The notes under the pieces are model-generated. The model made no database searches. It saw only the letters and a list, made by a program, of their open reading frames with translations, and was not told the DNA's origin. A program made the position numbers and the translations under genes. From Escherichia coli (GTDB taxonomy: Bacteria; Pseudomonadota; Gammaproteobacteria; Enterobacterales; Enterobacteriaceae), in assembly GCF_024223415.1 (NCBI RefSeq), contig NZ_CP100500.1: DNA of 64,000 nucleotides; one strand, given 5' to 3'. Each line of letters opens with the position of its first letter. Position 1 is the stretch's first letter. Positions 3,920 to 12,494 of the stretch are shown here, in pieces.

Positions 3920-4678
3920 TCAGAAAAGAGAAGATTGCTGTGGAATAGCCGGAACTGCTCCGATCTCTGGAAGCGTTTTACGTAAGTCTTCCCACAGGGT
4001 ATGTACCAGTTCCGGTGCCTGGGCAATGTCTGGCGTATGTAAAAAAAGATAAGGCGTAGTGGTCTGATGCCACTGCGCTAATTTCTGTAACCAGACCTGA
4101 AATAATTCCCGGTTTTGCGTCATATCATCACTACCGATAAAACGGATCAGCGGATTTGTCGCCGTCAGTACAGCATGTACCGGAACTTTAGGTTTTTTTC
4201 GTTGAGCGTCGCGAATAGCTTCACTGTGTGGACGTGCTGCATGAACCGGGCGGCTGTCTAAAATCACCCGATTAACGCCGCGCTGATGTAAACCGCGATT
4301 AAGCGTTTGTTCCTCTTCCCCTTTGGCGAAAAACTGTGGATGGCGGACTTCCACACCATAATTAAATTCGCCAGGGAGAGAATCGAGAAAATGCCAAAGC
4401 GCAGGCAGCTCCCGTGGGCCGAATGTGGCAGGCAGTTGCAGCCAGTATTGCCCAATGCGCGGAGCCAACGGTGACATGCGGGTCAAAAATTCAGTCACTA
4501 AATCATCGCAATGTCGTAATGCTGCCTGATGCGAAATGGTCGCCGGAAACTTAAAACAGAAGCGGAAGTCATCTGTGGTCTGTTCACGCCAGCGCAGGAC
4601 AACCTCGGGTTTCGGCAGGGCGTAAAGCGTGGTGTTGCCCTCCACGCAGTTAACATGACGGGTATTGAAGGCTAACAC
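3920..4678 (-). CDS. yecE: DUF72 protein YecE with 5' end replaced by prophage sequence
   Basis: Body of the protein reads as YecE; the first ~10 codons (MLAFNTRHVN) differ from my recollection of the K-12 N-terminus, and the ORF overlaps the 3' end of the integrase gene. Confidence 0.75.
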   Translation of the reverse strand: MLAFNTRHVNCVEGNTTLYALPKPEVVLRWREQTTDDFRFCFKFPATISHQAALRHCDDLVTEFLTRMSPLAPRIGQYWLQLPATFGPRELPALWHFLDSLPGEFNYGVEVRHPQFFAKGEEEQTLNRGLHQRGVNRVILDSRPVHAARPHSEAIRDAQRKKPKVPVHAVLTATNPLIRFIGSDDMTQNRELFQVWLQKLAQWHQTTTPYLFLHTPDIAQAPELVHTLWEDLRKTLPEIGAVPAIPQQSSLF

Positions 4679-4690
4679 ACTGATTTTAAT
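4640..4690. other. putative prophage attachment junction (attL) within 5' end of yecE
   Basis: Point where YecE-like sequence ends and the integrase C-terminus overlaps; exact core not determinable without the other junction. Confidence 0.4.
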
Positions 4691-5985
4691 AAGTTTCTTG
4701 TGTCACTTTGGTGACCATGGGACATCATTGGGACATAATCTGCCAGCTTCTGATTCAGCATTGCGATCTGTTCTGCATTACTGTCAGTCATCCATGCTCC
4801 GTATACATTGAACACCATCTGGGCACTTGCATGGCCCATCTGGCTGGCAATGAAGCTTGGGTTTGCTCCGGCAGATAATGACCAGCACGCATAAGTGTGT
4901 CGTGACTGGTATGCTTTCCGGTGCCTGATGCCCGCACGCTTAATGGCTGTTTCCCATGAGTCGCCAATAGAATCTACCTTGTAGATAAAACCGACCTGTT
5001 TGCTTTTTCTAACCACCTGGGGGTTAAATACGAAAGTACATTCATGGTTCACTGTACGTCCATATTCACGTAGTTGAACCTTGATGTGGTGCTGCTTACC
5101 CAGTCTTGTCATTTCAGCCTGATTTTTCAGGACACTGATAGCGGGCTGGATAAGATGCACAACCCTGTTTGTACTTGCTTCAGTTTTAGGTAGAGTGAAC
5201 TCACCGAGTTTCGTATAATTGCGCCTGATAGTAATTGTTCCTGCTTTCAGATCGATATCTTCCCAGGCCAGGGAGACCAGTTCACCATGACGCATTCCTG
5301 TGTACACAGCCAATGACCACAGGTTTTTCGTCTGCTGATGTCGGCAAGCATCTATCAGGCGAATAAATTCGTCACGAGTTAGCGGATCTGGCTCTGCCCT
5401 GGCTCTTTTAAGAGGCTTAATTCCCTGGAAGGGATTTGCTTCTAAGTAACCGTGATCTGCAGCAAACTGAAACATTCCAGCGATTGTCGTCATGTAATAA
5501 TTTACAGTAACGACGCTCCGTCCTTTTGCTGCTGCTTTGTTTTTCGTTGAATTCTGGTACCCGGTCAGCAAATCTTTCCTGATATACAGCAATTCCTCTT
5601 TAGTTACCGATGACACCAGTCTGCTGCCTCCAATTTTCGGAACCATCGTTCTTGCAACGGATTCATAGCGATTGAATGCATTTGCAGAGATCTCCATTCG
5701 TTTCAGATCCAGCCACTTTTCTTCAAGTTCCTTCACCGTAATTTCTTTTTTACTTACCCCAAAAGCCTGAAGGTTAGGGGAGTCAGGGAACTGTGCAGCA
5801 TAATCAAAGCTTCCTGTGCGGATGGCAAAACATACCGATGTCCGCAGTTCCCCGGCGATCTTCCTGTTCTTGGCAGTGTCAGGGACACCAAGATTTTCCC
5901 TGACACGTTTACCTTTAAAATTAAACCAGATGCGTAATGTGCCGCCGTGGTTTTCGACGCCTGTTGGATATTTGACTTTATCCAT
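4672..5985 (-). CDS. int: phage integrase (tyrosine recombinase)
   Basis: 437 aa; N-terminal arm-binding-like region and C-terminal catalytic domain with conserved R..H..R..Y context (RHTYACW). Confidence 0.9.
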   Translation of the reverse strand: MDKVKYPTGVENHGGTLRIWFNFKGKRVRENLGVPDTAKNRKIAGELRTSVCFAIRTGSFDYAAQFPDSPNLQAFGVSKKEITVKELEEKWLDLKRMEISANAFNRYESVARTMVPKIGGSRLVSSVTKEELLYIRKDLLTGYQNSTKNKAAAKGRSVVTVNYYMTTIAGMFQFAADHGYLEANPFQGIKPLKRARAEPDPLTRDEFIRLIDACRHQQTKNLWSLAVYTGMRHGELVSLAWEDIDLKAGTITIRRNYTKLGEFTLPKTEASTNRVVHLIQPAISVLKNQAEMTRLGKQHHIKVQLREYGRTVNHECTFVFNPQVVRKSKQVGFIYKVDSIGDSWETAIKRAGIRHRKAYQSRHTYACWSLSAGANPSFIASQMGHASAQMVFNVYGAWMTDSNAEQIAMLNQKLADYVPMMSHGHQSDTRNLLKSVC

Positions 5986-6040
5986 TGATACCTCCAGACG
6001 CCCAAGAGCGATACGAGCTTACATACTTCATGGCATTAAA

Positions 6041-6277
6041 TCACCCAGGTTGTTTGTTTTTCATTGAAGCGACCCAGGCATCTATTGCTTTTCTGTTATA
6101 CATACATTCACTGGAAGGCTTTGGATTACCGTCTGGTGATACGTGAATATACTCTCTTCCAACCATCCAGCATTCTTTCCGGGCCCGAAGAATTGTGCCT
6201 GGTTTGAGCCCGGTAATTGCGATTAGAACGCTTTCACAAACCCATTCATTGGGAGCCAGTTGAATCACATTGCCCAT
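6041..6277 (-). CDS. xis: putative excisionase
   Basis: 78 aa basic protein immediately upstream of int in the same orientation. Confidence 0.55.
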   Translation of the reverse strand: MGNVIQLAPNEWVCESVLIAITGLKPGTILRARKECWMVGREYIHVSPDGNPKPSSECMYNRKAIDAWVASMKNKQPG

Positions 6278-6435
6278 GCATTACCTCACACAACACTCAG
6301 CCCACGGCAGTGGCACCACACTTCAAACATTCGTTTCACAATTTCACGACAGTAGAAACCGTCAACATCTCGTGTCAGGTCATAGCGATTGCCGTAACGC
6401 TGGTGGACCCATTGTTCAAATGCTTTATTCATTCT

Positions 6436-6678
6436 TTACTTCCTTTTCATGGCCCGTAATTTTTTCAGATGAGTTTCCTGTTCTGTTTCTGCCAGAATTT
6501 GTCGGTATTCCTGATGATCGAGCCGTTCAAACGTTTCATTAAAATCGTTTATTTTTACCGACTGTGTTCGCCCATCCATTCTTCTGTACAACACGGTGTT
6601 ATTTATGCAGCGAATAATTTTTACCGGGTAACCGGCACTGTCGGTATACAGTTGTCCCTGATTAATCAAAGCGAACAT
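6436..6678 (-). CDS. hypothetical phage protein
   Basis: ORF 6436..6801, most likely starting at internal Met (MFALINQ...); no recognisable domain. Confidence 0.35.
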   Translation of the reverse strand: MFALINQGQLYTDSAGYPVKIIRCINNTVLYRRMDGRTQSVKINDFNETFERLDHQEYRQILAETEQETHLKKLRAMKRK

Positions 6679-6709
6679 TTTTTCTCCTGCTCTCTGAATA
6701 GTGAGAACT

Positions 6710-7075
6710 TCAGAGTCGTATGTTTGTAGCGGGTTCAATGCTGATGATTTCTGCTGAGATAAGCATCCCGGCCAGCCAGAGCTCTCCGGACAGGTTTTCA
6801 TCCTTGCATTCCAGTCCGCCGATATTAATGGTGGCTATGATATCGCGCTTATCCTCGACTTCTTCATAAGGCAGCGTTGCGTACAGGCTTTCAATAGCGC
6901 AACTGATAACATCCAGTCCGGTCAGATTGCCGCCGACAGTGACTTCGAATGTTTCGCGGTATTCCCATAGCCCGAAAGTTAATCGAACGGTTTGTTTTGC
7001 CATGCGCCCGCATGACGTCAGATTCGGGTCATAGTTCATTATTTGCGGTTGAGTATTCTGGGCGTTCATCTGCAT
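6710..7075 (-). CDS. hypothetical phage protein
   Basis: ORF 6710..7141, likely start at internal Met (MQMNAQ...); no recognisable domain. Confidence 0.35.
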   Translation of the reverse strand: MQMNAQNTQPQIMNYDPNLTSCGRMAKQTVRLTFGLWEYRETFEVTVGGNLTGLDVISCAIESLYATLPYEEVEDKRDIIATINIGGLECKDENLSGELWLAGMLISAEIISIEPATNIRL

Positions 7076-7109
7076 TTCCCTTAGCCCGGCGGCCTGCCGG
7101 GCGTATAAG

Positions 7110-7937
7110 TTATTTAACCTGGATAAATGGTGTATTAGCACCGCTGGTCATGTATTGCGGCAGTGTGCCGTTCCATTTATTGATGGCTTCCAGCTCCATA
7201 ACGCCGGGGTTCTGACGCAGAGCTTCACCGCGTAAACGAATAGCATCAGCTTCGGCCTGGGCTTTTGTGCGAATCGCATCAGCCTGTCCGGCAGCTTCTG
7301 CGCGCAACATATTGGCTTCCGCTTCGCGCTGTTTTACTTCCTGCTCGCGCTGCAGTGTTTTCTGGTTCGCCGTGACTTTGGCATTAATGCTGTCGATAAC
7401 TGTTGGCGGGTACTCCGGCTTACCCACATATGAGAGGCTCATTACCTGAATACCGATAGGTGTCATCTCTGCCTGAATGTCTTTAAGAGCTTCATCCAGC
7501 AGCTCAGACTTGCCGCCGTCGATAAATTTGTCAGTGGTCATTTTGCTGGCCAGTCGGTTGAGTGCGTCGGCGATCTTCTGGCGCAGGTCAGTGTCGGTAA
7601 TGTCATCCACGCCTTTGCGGTAGGTCTGAAACACCGTGGTAACTTTGGATGGATCAACTTTGTAGGCCACGCCAATGTGATAGCCGATGGTTGTACCGTC
7701 ACTCATCTGGAAACTGAACGGTTCATCGTAGGTCTTCATTTGTTTGAAGGTGGGGAAGATATAAACTTCAGTATTCCAGCCAGTCCAGTAGCGACCAACA
7801 CCGACCACCTCACCGACGCCTTTGTCGTCGCCCAGTTTATTTACCTTGATGCCAACATTACCTGGTTCAACGCGATCGCAACCGACAAGGCCAATAGTCG
7901 GCAGAACAATGGCTAAAGCAAAAATAATTTTTTTCAT
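7110..7937 (-). CDS. SPFH/band-7 (prohibitin/stomatin-like) domain lipoprotein
   Basis: 275 aa; signal peptide with lipobox (LVGC); central SPFH-like region followed by Ala/Glu/Gln-rich coiled coil. Confidence 0.65.
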   Translation of the reverse strand: MKKIIFALAIVLPTIGLVGCDRVEPGNVGIKVNKLGDDKGVGEVVGVGRYWTGWNTEVYIFPTFKQMKTYDEPFSFQMSDGTTIGYHIGVAYKVDPSKVTTVFQTYRKGVDDITDTDLRQKIADALNRLASKMTTDKFIDGGKSELLDEALKDIQAEMTPIGIQVMSLSYVGKPEYPPTVIDSINAKVTANQKTLQREQEVKQREAEANMLRAEAAGQADAIRTKAQAEADAIRLRGEALRQNPGVMELEAINKWNGTLPQYMTSGANTPFIQVK

Positions 7938-8122
7938 CTTTTATCCTTAGTGAAAGAAAGACCCTTGTAAATGGCATAAATGCAGGGCGGGGTCAGAAAC
8001 GCCAGTGCAAAGCCAGAAATAACTGCTATCGTATCCTTCATGGATATAAGGAACGGAACGAGTAATCCGTAAATGCATGCGATAATTGCCAGTAAAATTA
8101 CTATTGTGAAATACAGTCTCAT
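7934..8122 (-). CDS. small two-helix membrane protein
   Basis: 62 aa, two hydrophobic helices; stop/start overlap (ATGA) with the SPFH gene downstream. Confidence 0.45.
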   Translation of the reverse strand: MRLYFTIVILLAIIACIYGLLVPFLISMKDTIAVISGFALAFLTPPCIYAIYKGLSFTKDKR

Positions 8123-8145
8123 TGGTCTGTGGTATCCCGATATTT

Positions 8146-8253
8146 TTAACCGACTGACAGCGCAATAAAGAGAATAATGATTTCTGTTAGTGTCAGCACT
8201 GTGGCAAGGATTAAAATCAGTTTTACTCTGTTTAATTCACGGTTGCTTTTCAT
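8146..8253 (-). CDS. small hydrophobic membrane peptide (35 aa)
   Basis: Hand-translated minus-strand ORF MKSNRELNRVKLILILATVLTLTEIIILFIALSVG upstream of the 62 aa gene; below the ORF-track size cutoff. Confidence 0.3.
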   Translation of the reverse strand: MKSNRELNRVKLILILATVLTLTEIIILFIALSVG

Positions 8254-8298
8254 ATAAACGGTTAGTAAAAAACGGAAGAATTATTTTCTTCTTAATAT

Positions 8299-8880
8299 TT
8301 AATGTGTCACTGGCGCTTCTGGCATACCATGAGTATTCAGGTCGTGAATCATTTCATCCAGAAGGAGTTCAAGCCCTTCGCGCCCCATAGCAGAGAGAAT
8401 GAAACCATTATCAGGATCTGCGATGAGCATTTTTTGATAGAGAAACAGAACTCGCCCCATGCCTTCAGTTTCGCCATATTTTTCAATAAATCCCCATTCG
8501 ACATGGTTTTGCAGGGCAATGCGAAGTGGTCCTGGGTATATACTTATGCAACCATGTTTCCCCTTGTAAATAACTGCGCGATCTGTCGTCCCGTTATCGT
8601 TAGGGATATCAATAGTGCCGTTCTTGTCTTCCTCTTCACTGATAAACTTCATCACATACAGCCAGCGCCACTGAGCAACCTTCAGATCGACTGAAAATCT
8701 TCCCAGCAATCCGGCATCATCAGCTTCGGCAAGACATTGCATGATTCTTAAACCGTGCCAGTATGGATTATCGAATTCGCCATCATTAAGCCGCTGTACG
8801 GCCTGAATATAATCAATGGTTGTATTACCAATTTTTATGCCATGTGGCGTTACTTCTGGTCGGAACTCTGAATGATTCAT
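8299..8880 (-). CDS. hypothetical protein (193 aa from internal Met)
   Basis: ORF 8299..8937; likely start MNHSEFRPEV overlapping the stop of the upstream 67 aa gene (ATGA); no recognisable domain. Confidence 0.45.
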   Translation of the reverse strand: MNHSEFRPEVTPHGIKIGNTTIDYIQAVQRLNDGEFDNPYWHGLRIMQCLAEADDAGLLGRFSVDLKVAQWRWLYVMKFISEEEDKNGTIDIPNDNGTTDRAVIYKGKHGCISIYPGPLRIALQNHVEWGFIEKYGETEGMGRVLFLYQKMLIADPDNGFILSAMGREGLELLLDEMIHDLNTHGMPEAPVTH

Positions 8881-9080
8881 AATATTTGCTCCTTTGCTGG
8901 TGGAATAATCGTGTAGCCAGCTCTTTTTGCCATCCACAGAAATGTATCCATGCAGCCAACGAATTCATTATCCAGCAGATGTTTTGAGTAAATTACTTCA
9001 CCATTTTCAATGGTTAGCAACACTCTTACTTTTTTATGTGTTATGTTTTGTTGTTTTTCTTCCATTGACTTATCTCCCAT
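8877..9080 (-). CDS. hypothetical small protein (67 aa)
   Basis: Translationally coupled to the 193 aa gene. Confidence 0.4.
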   Translation of the reverse strand: MGDKSMEEKQQNITHKKVRVLLTIENGEVIYSKHLLDNEFVGCMDTFLWMAKRAGYTIIPPAKEQIL

Positions 9081-9261
9081 ATGCTTTGCGCAAATACAGG
9101 TTGGCTATATGAAGATAAGAATCTCCATGTTGTGCAATGAGGCAGGCAGTTTTATACGATGCCTTATGTTTCAGGAAAGTCATAACATAATCTCCTGCGA
9201 ATAAAGGTTGCAACAATCCCCGGCGATAAAACCGTAATAAACATTCAGGGAATATTTATTG

Positions 9262-9627
9262 TTATTGCGCTAATTCTTTTTCGGCAGCAGATTTTGCATA
9301 TTCACATGCAAAATTCAGAATTTCGCTGCCAAGTGTTTTTGTTTCGTGATTACTGGACATATGTAATACCTGTGTTGCATGCAATAAATGATAAACATTT
9401 ACCGCAAATGAGTCCGGCTCCAGACAAATGCCTTCATAATCATCTTGTTGTGAGGTTGTTTCTGTCATTGCTCCTGAAGTGCATGCGAGCCTGTTTTTGA
9501 CAATTCTCTTTCCTCTAATCACTATATCGGCAACATCTATTGCCTTTACAACCTCCGGGAGAAGTTCCGGGTTTGTATAATCAAAGTCATCAACATGGAG
9601 AACAGTTATGTTTTCGAACTTTTTCAT
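9262..9627 (-). CDS. hypothetical protein (121 aa)
   Basis: ORF downstream of the HTH gene in the same orientation; no recognisable domain. Confidence 0.4.
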   Translation of the reverse strand: MKKFENITVLHVDDFDYTNPELLPEVVKAIDVADIVIRGKRIVKNRLACTSGAMTETTSQQDDYEGICLEPDSFAVNVYHLLHATQVLHMSSNHETKTLGSEILNFACEYAKSAAEKELAQ

Positions 9628-9755
9628 GGCTTCCTCAGCTGACTTATATGTTCTGCTATATAGCGAGTCTCAGAAGTGTTTTCATATTGAGACTGTTTCC
9701 GCAATGATTGATAAAAATGTTCGCATGTACCTTGAGGGGCGAAGCGGCGATTATG

Positions 9756-10304
9756 TCACCATTGGTATTGGTTCTTCCGTAGAAGAGCTTCGCGAGATAA
9801 GGAGCAAACTTGTTGAGATGCGTCATGGTGTTGCTGCTCCTCACTTTTTGGTTGCTCCGGAGGAGTAACCTCGCCAGTTAACAGCCACATCGGATCGCAG
9901 CCAAGAATATTTGCCAGTGGGGTAAGCATACTGATAGTTGGTTCATACTCTCCGCTCTCCCACTGGATGATGATTTCTTCATCGAGATCGAGCAGCCTGG
10001 CGAGTTCGGCGGTTGTTAAGCCGCAGGCTTCGCGTTGGGTGCGAAGGTTAACCAGCCAGCTTTTAGGGAAGGATTGTTTTTGTTGTGCAGGAGAAGCCGT
10101 AGATAGAGCATATTCATGGATAAATTCCATTACCTCAATGCCCAGTTCCTTTGAGCGAGCACAATCCAGAAGATGGAATGTGCGTACAGCACTTAGCAAA
10201 TTTGCAATATTTAATGCAAAGGAATCAAGTTCTAAGCCTTCAAGCGTAACACAGCCGCAGTTGATAAAATTAGTTGTTTCTGGAGTTGCTTTTAGTGTCT
10301 TCAT
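9756..10304 (-). CDS. protein with C-terminal XRE-type helix-turn-helix domain
   Basis: 182 aa; residues ~90-145 (LTTAELARLLDLDEEIIIQWESGEYEPTISMLTPLANILGCDPMWLL) look like an HTH_XRE domain; N-terminal ~85 aa unassigned. Confidence 0.5.
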   Translation of the reverse strand: MKTLKATPETTNFINCGCVTLEGLELDSFALNIANLLSAVRTFHLLDCARSKELGIEVMEFIHEYALSTASPAQQKQSFPKSWLVNLRTQREACGLTTAELARLLDLDEEIIIQWESGEYEPTISMLTPLANILGCDPMWLLTGEVTPPEQPKSEEQQHHDASQQVCSLSREALLRKNQYQW

Positions 10305-10357
10305 ATACCCACCAACAATTTTAAATTGAATTTAATCAAGTTATAATTGATGGTGCG

Positions 10358-10386
10358 ATATTATGCTTTGAGAAATAGGCTGTCAA
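10358..10386 (-). promoter_or_regulatory. strong sigma70-like promoter reading leftward (pL-like)
   Basis: Minus-strand TTGACA, 17-bp spacer, TAATAT, ~50 bp upstream of the HTH gene start; coordinates approximate. Confidence 0.45.
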
Positions 10387-10411
10387 GAAAAAATTGATAC
10401 CGTGTGTTTTA

Positions 10412-10436
10412 GGCAGAAAAAAACGGGCAAAGCCCG
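10412..10436 (-). terminator. hairpin plus T-run downstream of cI
   Basis: Minus strand reads aacgggctttgcccgttttttt just after the cI stop; coordinates approximate. Confidence 0.5.
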
Positions 10437-10449
10437 TTAAAATCAAAGA

Positions 10450-11145
10450 CTAACCAAATCTGTTTATATTGAATGGTACTGATGAGATCACTTTAGACTG
10501 GATATAAAGCAGAGCTAACCCCTCTTTTTCGATGCTCCATGGTTGATAATTGGGGTTATCAGATAACACCATGATTTTGCTTCCAATTTTTTGAAGTCTT
10601 TTCACGTAGCATTCTCCATCAAAACAAAATGCATAAATGCCATCGCCATCAAAATAAGTTACTGTCTTATCAAGAAAAAGAAGGTCGCCAGGTGAGATTG
10701 TGGGAGCCATACTGTCTCCTCTGGCGTTACCTATTTCTATATTTTTGAATGCCCGATTTCCAACAAGGCGTCGGGCATATTCAGGATCAAGTTCTATTGA
10801 GCGCACTACATCTATCAAGTCACCACGGACATGAGTTCCATCACCGCAACTAAACTCAACATCAAGGACATTAAACACGACGCTATCTGTTCTTGTCTGG
10901 TGTTTCTCTTGCGAGGAAAAGGTTGGTGAGGAGTCTTCACCTAAGAACCAGGATTGTGGATAACCGCTAATCTCGGATAAATGCGCGAGCTTATCACTCC
11001 GTGGAAATGTTTTTCCTGTTGTCCAGTACTGCACTGATTGCGCACTCACACCTAACTTGCGGGCCAGTTGAGCCTGAGTCCATCCTTTTGCTTTCAGCAT
11101 CGCGGCTATTCGATTTTCCGTGTTTTTGACGTTCTTCATGACCAA
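10450..11145 (-). CDS. cI: CI-like repressor (HTH plus S24 LexA-type autopeptidase domain)
   Basis: 231 aa; N-terminal HTH (KGWTQAQLARKLGVSAQSVQYW), C-terminal S24 peptidase motifs (GDSMAPT...KRL); divergent from cro. Confidence 0.88.
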   Translation of the reverse strand: MVMKNVKNTENRIAAMLKAKGWTQAQLARKLGVSAQSVQYWTTGKTFPRSDKLAHLSEISGYPQSWFLGEDSSPTFSSQEKHQTRTDSVVFNVLDVEFSCGDGTHVRGDLIDVVRSIELDPEYARRLVGNRAFKNIEIGNARGDSMAPTISPGDLLFLDKTVTYFDGDGIYAFCFDGECYVKRLQKIGSKIMVLSDNPNYQPWSIEKEGLALLYIQSKVISSVPFNINRFG

Positions 11146-11272
11146 ATCCTGTGGGTTTCTTTACAAGGATAAATCTTTACTTGATTTTAGTGTATTCGAT
11201 CCTTTTGCAACTTGCATGTTAATTTAAACTTGATGTATTCTTGATTCATAAAGTTAATGTTGGTGCTTTGTT
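11146..11272. promoter_or_regulatory. immunity-region operator/promoter (OR, pRM/pR-like)
   Basis: Divergent cI-cro intergenic region with repeated acttgat-type half-site motifs; the same motif (aatcaagtt) recurs near the leftward promoter at ~10340. Confidence 0.55.
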
Positions 11273-11572
11273 ATGAAAGGAAATGATTACGATAAACTTC
11301 GTGCATTAATTGCGCAAAATGCCATAGCGCGAAATCTTGGTGTGACGCCGCAAGCGGTGAATCAGTGGTTTTCAAAAAACACAATTCCTGCTCGTTTCGT
11401 TTTACGCGTATGTGAAGTAGTTGCATGGAAGGTCACGCCACATGGCTTAAGGCCAGATCTTTATCCTCACCCTGAAGATGGAATTCCTGATTCGTTACGC
11501 AAAATTTCAAATCCAAGCTTAGCGCGCACGGAAGATGGGCAGAGTGATTCATCAGAAATGTCCACGCGATGA
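11273..11572 (+). CDS. cro: Cro-like HTH regulator
   Basis: 99 aa with HTH (IARNLGVTPQAVNQWF), first gene rightward of the operator region. Confidence 0.7.
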   Translation: MKGNDYDKLRALIAQNAIARNLGVTPQAVNQWFSKNTIPARFVLRVCEVVAWKVTPHGLRPDLYPHPEDGIPDSLRKISNPSLARTEDGQSDSSEMSTR

Positions 11573-11648
11573 ACGGTTACTGAACGAAAAAAGAAAAGCC
11601 GGGCCGCACTCCATCAGCCCGACTTATTCTGATTAGTAAGGGGATTTC

Positions 11649-12494
11649 ATGATGATCAATAAACAAAAATTAGTCAACCCTGAAAACCTGCCAGTTATTG
11701 CTGGTGTAGAAATTTCAACTGATATGGTTGGGCGCTTTAATCTGAATGCATTGCATCGAGCCAGCGGTCTTGGCCCCAATAAAGCTCCGACGCAGTGGTT
11801 GCGTACTCAGTCAGCTAAACAACTTATTGAAGAGCTGGAAAAAGAAACTATGCAGAATTGCATAGTTTCACTGGAAGGGCGGAATGGCGGTACTTTTGCG
11901 CACGAACTGCTTGCTGTTGAATATGCAGGATGGATTTCTCCTGCGTTCCGGTTGCAGGTGAACCAGACTTTTATTGACTATCGTACTGGCAAACTTACAG
12001 CGGGCAATAATCAGTTGCCCAATTTTGACGATCCGATCGCTGCTGCTGAAGCGTGGATTGAAGCCAAAAAATCCGAACGCCTTGCTCTCGGGTATGCAGA
12101 GCGTCAGGCTCGCTACATCAGCAAACTCGAAAGCCATCTCGCCGATGGCATCACTCCTGTGCAGTTCTGCAAACAGCTCAACGGTGTAAACACTCGTCAG
12201 ATTAATGCGTTCCTTGAAGAGCGTAACTGGCTGTATGACGACCGTCCGGAGGCTATGTATCCGCGCTGGCGTGTAAAAGCGTATGCACGTGACCAATACC
12301 TGACTGAGCGTTCTGGGCAGGTTGAGCAGGAAAACGGGGAAATGCGCGAGATTTTCAAACCACTCCTGAAGAAAAAAGGTGCCGCCTGGTTATATCGCCA
12401 TTATCTGAACGGCGAACTACCGATGAAGAAAACATGGGATGGGCTGTTTACCCATAACACTGAGCTCGCGAATCTTTTACAGGAGAGCAAATGA
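11649..12494 (+). CDS. KilA-N domain antirepressor-like protein
   Basis: 281 aa; N-terminal KilA-N-like and C-terminal antirepressor-like regions. Confidence 0.65.
   Translation: MMINKQKLVNPENLPVIAGVEISTDMVGRFNLNALHRASGLGPNKAPTQWLRTQSAKQLIEELEKETMQNCIVSLEGRNGGTFAHELLAVEYAGWISPAFRLQVNQTFIDYRTGKLTAGNNQLPNFDDPIAAAEAWIEAKKSERLALGYAERQARYISKLESHLADGITPVQFCKQLNGVNTRQINAFLEERNWLYDDRPEAMYPRWRVKAYARDQYLTERSGQVEQENGEMREIFKPLLKKKGAAWLYRHYLNGELPMKKTWDGLFTHNTELANLLQESK

What the first reader, a model, noticed from the sequence alone, without database searches (positions are those of the whole stretch)
6436..10386. Accessory block of seven or eight uncharacterised minus-strand genes occupies the xis-to-cI region where lambdoid phages usually carry recombination/exclusion genes
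Between excisionase and cI there is no exo/bet/gam, kil, N or rex-like gene that I can recognise. Instead the region holds three apparent modules: an SPFH lipoprotein with small membrane peptides; a translationally coupled 67 aa + 193 aa pair; and a 182 aa C-terminal-HTH protein with a 121 aa partner. None matches a family I can name. This slot is a known hot-spot for exclusion and anti-phage cargo in temperate phages, so these are the best candidates in the window for an undescribed system.
Basis: partly seen in the sequence, partly recalled or inferred. Interest (0 to 1): 0.75.

Follow-up and report, generated by a model that had tools for sequence, protein, structure and literature searches.

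The report
Early-left operon of a phiP27-type prophage
The flagged block is the repressor-controlled early operon of a well-known type of E. coli prophage (phiP27 family): real genes of unknown function, half conserved backbone and half swappable cargo, with nothing linking them to a known anti-phage defence system.

Summary
The genes are real. Window 6436-10386 is 97.5% identical to genes L03-L10 of phage phiP27, and 53 complete E. coli genomes hold at least 80% of the block. It is one minus-strand unit running from a cI-side promoter (10386-10358, bracketed by two TCAA-N7-TTGA palindromes) down to xis and int.

I count nine solid genes and one doubtful ORF:
- L10, an XRE-type HTH regulator.
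- L08, a copy of L10's N-terminal domain without the HTH.
- TM35, the doubtful ORF.
- TM62 plus a Band_7/SPFH inner-membrane lipoprotein.
- DUF5406.
- DUF4222, the family that includes RgdR.

No Red, Gam, Kil, N or Rex homologue is present, and PADLOC finds no defence model.

In 63 related viral loci, L08, p37, p62 and DUF4222 are always present and p193 is in 53. Only TM62+SPFH and DUF5406 vary, at about half. The two-TM + SPFH pair recurs in P2-like, P1-like, N4-like, Pseudomonas and Burkholderia phages, at early-operon positions where the context is readable, which points to a lytic-cycle membrane role. Structure models of p193 and DUF5406 match no solved fold.

Verdict: an ordinary mosaic early operon of orphan genes. 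The defence reading is not supported but is not excluded for the SPFH cassette.

The parts
10358..10386 (-). pL-like sigma-70 promoter (TTGACA-17-TAATAT) that heads the block
   Evidence: Best promoter-like site in 5900-11700, 10 of 12 matches. It lies just downstream of the cI terminator-like hairpin at 10438-10422.
10336..10397 (.). Two TCAA-N7-TTGA palindromes (10336-10350 and 10383-10397) that bracket the promoter; candidate cI operators
   Evidence: Two of only three exact matches in the 64-kb window. One-mismatch versions lie in the cI/cro intergenic region 11160-11250. The operator role is inferred.
9756..10304 (-). L10: 182-aa XRE-type regulator, first gene after the promoter. It has a variable N-terminal helical domain, a near-invariant HTH_3 core and a tail.
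   Evidence: HTH_3 E 3.9e-9. phrog_4836 E 1.5e-77. Family architecture. The breakpoint against phiP27 falls inside the gene at ~10046.
9262..9627 (-). L08: the conserved core is the C-terminal 68 aa (9262-9468), a copy of L10's N-terminal domain without an HTH. The upstream 53 codons are of uncertain status.
   Evidence: 45% identity over 47 aa to L10 residues 24-70, E 4e-10. PHROG cross-hits. RefSeq annotates the 68-aa form. Relatives have 66-aa forms. Present in 63 of 63 loci.
It has an AGGAG ribosome-binding site and its stop abuts the p62 start.
   Evidence: Sequence. Conserved down to Klebsiella and CharmingMan phages. 16-17 of 26-31 differences fall at third codon positions. Present in 63 of 63 loci.
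8877..9080 (-). p62 (62 aa from 9065, or 67 aa from 9080); its stop overlaps the p193 start
   Evidence: phrog_340 E 6.5e-24. RefSeq annotates the 62-aa form. Present in 63 of 63 loci. No relative in the PDB.
8299..8880 (-). p193: 193-aa orphan protein of Enterobacterales prophages
8146..8253 (-). TM35: 35-aa hydrophobic ORF, doubtful gene
   Evidence: One hydrophobic stretch. No PHROG hit. Not annotated in RefSeq. No codon-position bias, though few differences are available. Present in 20 of 63 loci.
7934..8122 (-). TM62: two-TM hairpin protein whose stop overlaps the SPFH start
   Evidence: phrog_1130 E 2.5e-23. Hydropathy, and equivalent small ORFs upstream of SPFH in P88, Klebsiella, N4-like, Pseudomonas, Burkholderia and P1-like phages.
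7110..7937 (-). SPFH/Band_7 lipoprotein, 275 aa, lipobox LVGC with Asp at +2 (predicted inner-membrane retention, facing the periplasm)
   Evidence: Band_7 E 3e-31. phrog_200 E 2.7e-114. HflC/HflK hits lie far below the curated cut-offs. Found in 737 phage records and 569 E. coli genomes.
6710..7051 (-). DUF5406 protein (113 aa by RefSeq start; 121 aa from the in-frame ATG at 7075 was the form modelled)
6436..6678 (-). DUF4222 protein, 80 aa (family of the regulator RgdR)
   Evidence: PF13973 E 2.4e-14. phrog_285. The 121-aa extension is rejected. Present in 63 of 63 loci. RgdR link from PMC10877973 and PMC3378721.
6286..6432 (-). 48-aa ORF just outside the flagged range, between DUF4222 and xis; part of the same operon
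   Evidence: phrog_3871 E 3.5e-35. Annotated in RefSeq. Present in 62 of 63 loci.
4672..6277 (-). xis (6041-6277) and int (4672-5985), the distal end of the transcription unit; int overlaps the 3' end of yecE
10422..11145 (-). cI-type repressor (10450-11145) and its terminator-like hairpin (10438-10422), the upstream boundary of the block

Best explanation
The block is the repressor-controlled early-left (pL-type) operon of a long-tailed, yecE-integrating prophage of the phiP27 / L-Stx-phage family. It is not one system. It is a mosaic string of separately exchangeable cassettes, transcribed from the promoter at 10386-10358 towards xis and int once cI is inactivated.

(1) L10 is a DNA-binding regulator with a near-invariant HTH and a fast-changing N-terminal helical domain. 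L08 is a free-standing copy of that domain. I infer that L08 modulates L10 or a shared partner by protein-protein contact.

(2) p37, p62 and p193 are a translationally coupled set of backbone early genes found in temperate phages of Enterobacterales. They probably act as a complex on a host target. The target is unknown.

(3) TM62 plus the Band_7 lipoprotein is a membrane module shared by many phages. By analogy with other SPFH proteins, I infer that the lipoprotein assembles into a ring or cage on the periplasmic face of the inner membrane, around or next to the co-translated hairpin protein. This would remodel or shield a membrane patch during lytic growth.

(4) DUF5406 is cargo that often travels with the SPFH cassette.

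(5) DUF4222 and the 48-aa ORF are small backbone proteins next to xis, of the RgdR type of small regulator.

Shown: gene content, homologies, mosaic structure, the core-versus-cargo split, and absence from known defence models. Inferred: operon control by cI, timing of expression, and all molecular roles.
For: - Identity with phiP27 L03-L10: 97.5% over 86% of the query. At least 80% of the block is present in 53 E. coli genomes.
- All genes lie on one strand, with overlaps or short gaps between them.
- The best promoter-like site sits right after the cI terminator. No minus-strand terminator-like site lies between it and int.
- Two of the three TCAA-N7-TTGA palindromes in 64 kb bracket that promoter.
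- HTH_3, the variable N-domains and the L08 paralogy are documented.
- Core-versus-cargo counts come from 63 loci. Independent module counts in E. coli come.
- The two-TM + Band_7 pair with overlapping stop and start occurs in six unrelated phage backgrounds. Where the context is readable the position is an early operon: between cox and the replication endonuclease in P88, between cI and int in the Klebsiella phage, and downstream of the C1-controlled Pban position in P1-like plasmids. The other three contexts were not resolved.
- No PADLOC model is hit, and the alternative cargo of the sub-slot also has none.
Against: - No expression data exist. The operator assignment rests on a short palindrome whose window-wide count is not significant on its own (3 observed, 1.6 expected).
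- A weak hairpin with a T-run after p193 (-4.3 kcal/mol, z -1.1) and weak promoter-like sites near 8310 and 8110 leave room for separate expression of the SPFH cassette.
- No function has been tested for any of these proteins. Models of p193 and DUF5406 match no solved fold, so their roles are guesses.
- The 63 loci are redundant and were all anchored on L10, so the counts are descriptive only.
Confidence: 0.65

Rival explanations
1. The TM62 + SPFH lipoprotein cassette, with or without TM35 and p193, is a superinfection-exclusion or anti-phage module. It would block genome entry or membrane events of incoming phages at the inner membrane, in the manner of T4 Imm, P22 SieA or HK97 gp15.
For: - It is true cargo: present in about half of related loci and spread across P2-like, P1-like and lambdoid elements. 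It is in 569 E. coli genomes, with 239 places on plasmids.
- Its G+C is higher than that of its neighbours: 0.52 against about 0.39-0.46.
- It is predicted to sit at the inner membrane facing the periplasm.
- In N4-like Moo19 it lies next to a gene annotated as a P22 gp17-like exclusion protein.
- SPFH and p193 are adjacent in two distant lineages despite a swapped gene order.
Against: - No PADLOC hit.
- Where the context is readable the cassette lies inside repressor-controlled or early lytic operons, with no promoter of its own. In P88 and the Klebsiella phage its start overlaps the preceding gene.
- It is common in strictly virulent phages such as N4-like phages, Kayvirus and jumbo phages.
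- No published phenotype was found.
Confidence: 0.2
2. The SPFH lipoprotein mimics or competes with HflK/HflC. It would retune the FtsH protease and so shift the stability of phage regulators and the choice between lysis and lysogeny.
For: - The best NCBIfam similarities are to HflC and HflK, over residues 105-239.
- It would have the same periplasmic topology as HflK/C. HflK/C cage FtsH and influence lambda lysogenisation (established knowledge; structures in PMC11326279, seen).
- One depositor annotates a homologue as 'high frequency of lysogenization C protein'.
Against: - The scores are far below the curated cut-offs: 25.9 against 134 bits.
- It is anchored by a lipid, not by an N-terminal TM helix.
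- The family is frequent in virulent phages and in phages of Gram-positive and archaeal hosts, where a lysogeny role makes no sense.
Confidence: 0.12
3. Some of the orphans (p37-p62-p193, DUF5406) are counter-defence or host-takeover proteins made early to disarm host immunity or host functions, as accessory early genes do in many phages.
For: - They are placed early in a lytic operon.
- They are small proteins with no enzyme domain and folds of their own.
- DUF5406 is spread across phages of Proteobacteria and Firmicutes, including virulent jumbo phages.
- The p193 family is confined to prophages of Enterobacterales.
Against: There is no similarity to any solved anti-defence protein. The argument is purely positional. 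The near-universal presence of p37 and p62 in the lineage fits a phage-internal function equally well.
Confidence: 0.2
4. L10 + L08, or p62 + p193, is a toxin-antitoxin or abortive-infection pair carried by the prophage.
For: - Each is a small gene followed by a larger, coupled gene.
- L10's HTH resembles HTH antitoxins and RmrA/CapH-type models.
Against: - The HTH similarity is generic XRE similarity.
- L08 is a copy of L10's own N-terminal domain, not a toxin.
- These are backbone genes of the phage lineage, sitting behind pL.
Confidence: 0.05

Closest known systems
Early-left region of Stx2e phage phiP27 (genes L03-L10; NC_003356 / AJ298298)
   Same: Same genes in the same order, 97.5% nucleotide identity over 86% of 6000-10500. 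The SPFH protein is 100% identical.
   Different: The immunity end differs. cI and the first ~86 residues of L10 are replaced, with the breakpoint near 10046. The phiP27 genes are annotated only as 'unknown', so the match gives identity, not function.
Lambda pL operon and its accessory (exo-xis / b-region-like) genes
   Same: Same position and orientation, running from cI to xis and int. The promoter lies next to the repressor gene and carries operator-like palindromes. The region is a mosaic of small non-essential orphan genes, and Ea22-like and EaA-like genes occupy the same sub-slot in relatives.
   Different: No N, cIII, kil, gam, bet, exo, ral, sieB or rex homologue was detected. The first gene is an HTH regulator, not an antiterminator.
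SPFH/Band_7 cage-forming proteins (HflK/HflC, QmcA, YqiK, flotillins)
   Same: Band_7 domain at E 3e-31, followed by an Ala/Glu-rich segment that aligns with HflC/HflK and flotillin regions. The protein is membrane-anchored and paired with a small membrane protein gene.
   Different: The anchor is a lipid with Asp at +2, not a TM helix. Scores lie far below the HflK/HflC cut-offs. The partner is a 62-aa hairpin with no NfeD domain. The gene is phage-encoded.
Small-ORF + SPFH pairs of other phages (N4 gp19-gp20 by depositor's note, P88 gp11-gp12, Klebsiella ST11-VIM1phi8.3, vB_Pae_U2, PhiBt-E264.1)
   Same: A 49-84-aa two-TM ORF whose stop overlaps the start of a ~275-aa lipoprotein with the conserved N-terminus GC-x-VEPGNVG. 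SPFH identity ranges from 38% to 93%.
   Different: None of these has a tested function either. The flanking genes differ in every case. The tie to N4 rests on an annotation note, not on an alignment made here.
RgdR (ECs1581), DUF4222 regulator of LEE/T3SS and motility in EHEC
   Same: The DUF4222 domain. Both are small proteins encoded by mobile elements (PMC3378721, PMC10877973).
   Different: The RGD motif is absent from this protein. It is 80 aa against 99 aa. RgdR was not aligned here, and the host of this window has no shown LEE.
Inner-membrane superinfection-exclusion proteins (T4 Imm, P22 SieA, HK97 gp15)
   Same: Phage-encoded inner-membrane proteins. This is a functional analogy only, drawn from my own knowledge.
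   Different: No sequence similarity was found by PHROGs or PADLOC. Prophage examples of this class are expressed in the lysogen, whereas this cassette sits in an early lytic operon.

Membership tests
phiP27-type early-left region (L03-L10) | Same genes in the same order with high nucleotide identity | tested here: met
   97.5% identity over 86% of 6000-10500. Gene-by-gene tblastn gives 88-100%.
phiP27-type early-left region (L03-L10) | Same immunity module (cI plus the promoter-proximal part of L10) | tested here: not met
   The match stops at query position 4047, which is window 10046. The L10 N-domain and cI differ.
Lambdoid pL early-left operon | Lies between the repressor gene and xis/int on the same strand, headed by a promoter with repressor operators | tested here: inconclusive
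   Position and strand are met. A promoter-like site and two palindromes are present. Operator function and cI binding cannot be tested here.
Lambdoid pL early-left operon | N-type antiterminator as first gene; Red/Gam, kil and cIII functions | tested here: not met
   No PHROG, Pfam or NCBIfam hit to any of these. The first gene is an HTH_3 protein.
SPFH / Band_7 superfamily | Band_7 (PF01145) domain | tested here: met
   E 3e-31, residues 22-208, model positions 2-176 of 176.
SPFH / Band_7 superfamily | Assembly into a membrane-bound oligomeric ring or cage | not testable with these tools
   Only a monomer sequence is available.
HflK / HflC (FtsH modulators) | Score above the NCBIfam equivalog cut-off | tested here: not met
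   HflC 25.9 bits against a cut-off of 134.4. HflK 23.1 bits against 159.4.
NfeD-SPFH operon | Partner gene encodes an NfeD-domain membrane protein | tested here: not met
   The partner is a 62-aa two-TM protein with no Pfam hit. NfeD was not detected in the concatenated scan.
Phage P1 Upl-Plp pair | Sequence similarity to P1 Plp (125 aa) and Upl (63 aa) | tested here: not met
   BLASTP finds no alignment. SPFH-bearing P1-like plasmids carry the module in the same dmt-ban interval, in place of plp/upl.
Known or candidate anti-phage defence systems (PADLOC-DB v2.0.0) | A hit to a system-specific protein model | tested here: not met
   Nine of the ten proteins have no hit. L10 hits only through its generic HTH (RmrA, HTH_VI, CapH).
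RgdR family (DUF4222 regulators) | DUF4222 domain | tested here: met
   PF13973, E 2.4e-14.
RgdR family (DUF4222 regulators) | RGD motif at residues 20-22 and activation of LEE1 | tested here: not met
   There is no RGD tripeptide in the 80-aa sequence (motif described in PMC3378721). Activation cannot be tested here.
XRE-family phage regulators ('CII-like', phrog_4836) | HTH_3 DNA-binding domain | tested here: met
   HTH_3 E 3.9e-9. Similarity to P22 C2, 434 repressor and Cro HTH domains. phrog_4836 E 1.5e-77.
XRE-family phage regulators ('CII-like', phrog_4836) | CII-like activation of lysogeny promoters | not testable with these tools
   The PHROG name is an annotation label only. No target sites were identified.
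Type II toxin-antitoxin pair | A recognisable toxin domain next to an antitoxin | tested here: not met

The most novel reading that the evidence does not exclude
The overlapping two-TM hairpin + Band_7 lipoprotein gene pair is conserved from temperate coliphages to N4-like, Pseudomonas and Burkholderia phages. It may be an undescribed phage membrane device: an SPFH cage built on the periplasmic face of the inner membrane early in infection. Such a cage could exclude superinfecting phages or protect the infected cell's membrane from defence effectors that kill by disrupting it. In some lineages p193 would work with it.
Probability: 0.2. Interest if true: 0.6.

Novelty: already known. Interest (0 to 1): 0.27.

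Why it matters
The block shows what fills the Red/kil/N position in the phiP27 / long-tailed Stx-phage lineage, whose early regions have been linked to Stx2 production levels (PMC11333237). It separates a conserved backbone (L10, L08, p37, p62, mostly p193, DUF4222) from true cargo (TM62+SPFH, DUF5406). That tells an experimenter which genes to test for phage-internal roles and which for exclusion or host effects.

The most useful lead is the widespread, uncharacterised hairpin + SPFH lipoprotein pair, found in 737 phage records. The L10/L08 pattern of an invariant HTH with a hypervariable N-terminal domain is a second small puzzle. Nothing here is a new kind of system.

Tried and rejected
- **P1 Upl-Plp equivalence.** I assumed from gene position and a CRISPRi table that the SPFH pair was P1 upl-plp. 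Reference P1 Plp is 125 aa, lies on the other strand and is unrelated. Rejected.
- **PDB sequence searches.** Searches with p193, DUF5406, p62, DUF4222 and L08 gave nothing significant.
- **Known defence systems.** PADLOC gave nothing for the block or for ten alternative cargo proteins of the same sub-slot.
- **Non-coding RNA.** Rfam at permissive E-values gave only a chance snoRNA hit.
- **The 121-aa form of the DUF4222 ORF.** Rejected on codon-position evidence.
- **TM35 as a gene.** Unresolved.
- **Hairpin after p193 as a terminator.** -4.3 kcal/mol, z -1.1: weak.
- **Literature.** Searches for a tested function of phage SPFH proteins, DUF5406 or the phiP27 early genes found none.
- **L10 whole-library search.** It was dominated by the generic HTH and added little beyond the family architecture.

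Full report
**Setting.** The window starts in the E. coli chromosome (cmoA, yecN, yecE). At 4672 it enters a prophage whose integrase overlaps the 3' end of yecE, followed by an excisionase at 6041-6277. The flagged interval 6436-10386 lies between xis and a cI-type repressor at 10450-11145.

- Megablast of 6000-10500 finds Stx2e phage phiP27 at 97.5% identity over 86% of the query.
- The same query matches 943 of 5,426 complete E. coli genomes, 53 of them over at least 80%.
- The ORFs coincide with phiP27 genes L03-L10 and with RefSeq CDSs.
- All but the 35-aa ORF hit PHROG families, with E-values from 1e-23 to 1e-114.
- The lipoprotein has the lipobox LVGC followed by Asp and a Band_7 domain at E 3e-31.
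- PHROGs, Pfam and NCBIfam give no hit to exo, bet, gam, kil, N, cIII or rex.

**Corrections to the gene list.**
- A 37-aa gene (9070-9183) with a good ribosome-binding site sits directly upstream of p62. It is conserved down to Klebsiella phages.
- The 35-aa hydrophobic ORF (8146-8253) shows no such bias and is unannotated, so it is doubtful.
- The 121-aa reading of 6436-6801 is probably wrong. Its first 41 codons differ from relatives mostly at second positions and overlap the DUF5406 gene. The 80-aa DUF4222 protein is the gene.
- The conserved part of L08 is its last 66-68 residues.

**Transcription unit.**
- All genes are on the minus strand, with overlaps or gaps of 3-128 nt.
- The best sigma-70-like site of the region (TTGACA-17-TAATAT, 10386-10358) lies just after the cI terminator-like hairpin. 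No minus-strand terminator-like site is reported between it and int.
- Two of the three exact TCAA-N7-TTGA palindromes in the whole window bracket this promoter. One-mismatch versions lie in the cI/cro intergenic region.
- I read this as a cI-repressed pL-type operon. That is an inference. The palindrome count alone is not significant, and a weak hairpin follows p193.

**The regulator module.**
- L10 carries an HTH_3 domain related to P22 C2, 434 repressor and Cro.
- Its relatives share an almost invariant HTH core. They have at least four N-terminal domains that do not align with one another, and either a tail or a second HTH.
- The breakpoint with phiP27 falls inside the gene, so the N-domain travels with the immunity region.
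- L08 is 45% identical over 47 residues to this L10's N-domain. It is present in all 63 related loci, whatever N-domain L10 has there.
- This looks like regulation by protein-protein contact. It does not look like a defence pair.

**The p37-p62-p193 set.**
- p193 has 60 homologues, all named hypothetical, from Escherichia and Citrobacter.
- Its family occurs in 36 phage records, including Klebsiella, Aeromonas and Elizabethkingia phages.
- p37 and p62 homologues accompany p193 in the distant Klebsiella and CharmingMan phages. These are backbone genes.

**The SPFH module.**
- The lipoprotein family occurs in 737 phage records, many of them virulent: Kayvirus, N4-like, jumbo and haloarchaeal viruses.
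- In every context inspected, a 49-84-aa two-TM ORF ends by overlapping the lipoprotein's start. The contexts are P2-like P88, Klebsiella ST11-VIM1phi8.3, N4-like Moo19, Pseudomonas vB_Pae_U2, Burkholderia PhiBt-E264.1 and P1-like plasmids.
- Where the context is readable, the position is an early or repressor-controlled operon. The N4-like, Pseudomonas and Burkholderia contexts could not be judged from annotation.
- I first equated the pair with P1 upl-plp. Direct comparison refuted that.
- HflC/HflK similarity is far below the family cut-offs, and the partner has no NfeD domain.
- No publication with a tested function was found.

**DUF5406 and DUF4222.**
- DUF4222 is the family of RgdR, a small regulator of LEE and motility encoded on a mobile element. 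This copy lacks the RGD motif.

**Core or cargo?** I fetched 80 viral loci anchored on L10 and scored all genes of the block by tblastn. Of these, 63 loci span L10 to the xis side.

| Gene | Loci with the gene (of 63) |
|---|---|
| L08 | 63 |
| p37 | 63 |
| p62 | 63 |
| DUF4222 | 63 |
| 48-aa ORF | 62 |
| p193 | 53 |
| DUF5406 | 35 |
| TM62 | 34 |
| SPFH | 32 |
| TM35 | 20 |

- There are eight presence/absence patterns.
- The variable sub-slot lies between p62/p193 and DUF4222.
- Its alternative contents include Ea22-like proteins, a MarR-type protein and small membrane proteins. They are almost all PHROG 'unknown function' and hit no specific PADLOC model.
- In E. coli genomes the SPFH module is in 569 genomes (239 places on plasmids), the p193 cassette in 160 and L08-L10 in 313.
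- The sample is redundant and anchored on L10, so the numbers are descriptive.

**Verdict.** This is the early-left operon of a known phage family: a mosaic of orphan genes with a conserved backbone and one truly mobile membrane cassette. The 'defence hot-spot' part has no positive support. For most genes it is contradicted by their conservation and by their position behind the repressor-controlled promoter. The SPFH pair remains a reasonable candidate for a lytic-phase membrane or exclusion function that nobody has tested.

Noticed in passing
window 9756-10304 (L10) and 9262-9468 (L08); loci L002-L005, L015-L094: L10 relatives keep an almost invariant HTH core but carry at least four unalignable N-terminal domains of about 50 aa. 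The recombination breakpoint with phiP27 lies inside the gene (~10046), so the N-domain travels with cI. L08, a free-standing copy of one N-domain type, is present in 63 of 63 loci regardless of which N-domain L10 has.
   Followed up: partly
window 9070-9183 (minus strand): A 37-aa gene that is unannotated in the closest RefSeq genome. It is conserved down to Klebsiella phages, shows third-position-biased divergence, and its stop abuts the p62 start.
   Followed up: yes
window 7110-8122; L006, L007, L008, L010, L011, L012: A two-TM hairpin ORF overlapping the start of a Band_7 lipoprotein is a gene pair conserved across temperate and virulent phages of several bacterial genera. In P1-like plasmids it occupies the dmt-ban interval that holds plp/upl/tciABC in reference P1, but it is unrelated to Plp and Upl.
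   Followed up: yes
L008 (Klebsiella phage ST11-VIM1phi8.3) 3938-5579 versus window 7110-8880: SPFH and the p193 homologue are adjacent in both phages but in opposite order, and in the Klebsiella phage they overlap. Each gene also occurs without the other in other lineages. A possible functional link was not resolved.
   Followed up: partly
window about 8265-8296 (minus strand): An AT-rich hairpin GAAGAA-aataa-TTCTTC followed by CGTTTTTT lies directly after the p193 stop, upstream of the TM35/TM62/SPFH cassette. It folds at -4.3 kcal/mol (z -1.1), so at best it is a leaky terminator.
   Followed up: partly
window 9608-9868 (plus strand): An 86-aa plus-strand ORF overlaps the 3' end of L10 and the L10-L08 gap. 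phiP27 annotates a plus-strand L09 in the equivalent gap. Coding status was not examined.
   Followed up: no
window 3920-5985: The integrase ORF (4672-5985) overlaps the last codons of yecE (3920-4678). This is the yecE insertion site also used by Stx phages of the same early-region family. Locus L015 (IMGVR_UViG_2579778622_000015) is 100% identical in all 14 proteins compared, so it is probably the same prophage.
   Followed up: partly
window 7001-8000 versus 8001-10500: The SPFH gene has a higher G+C (0.48-0.52) than the genes upstream of it in the operon (0.38-0.45), which fits separate acquisition of the cassette.
   Followed up: no
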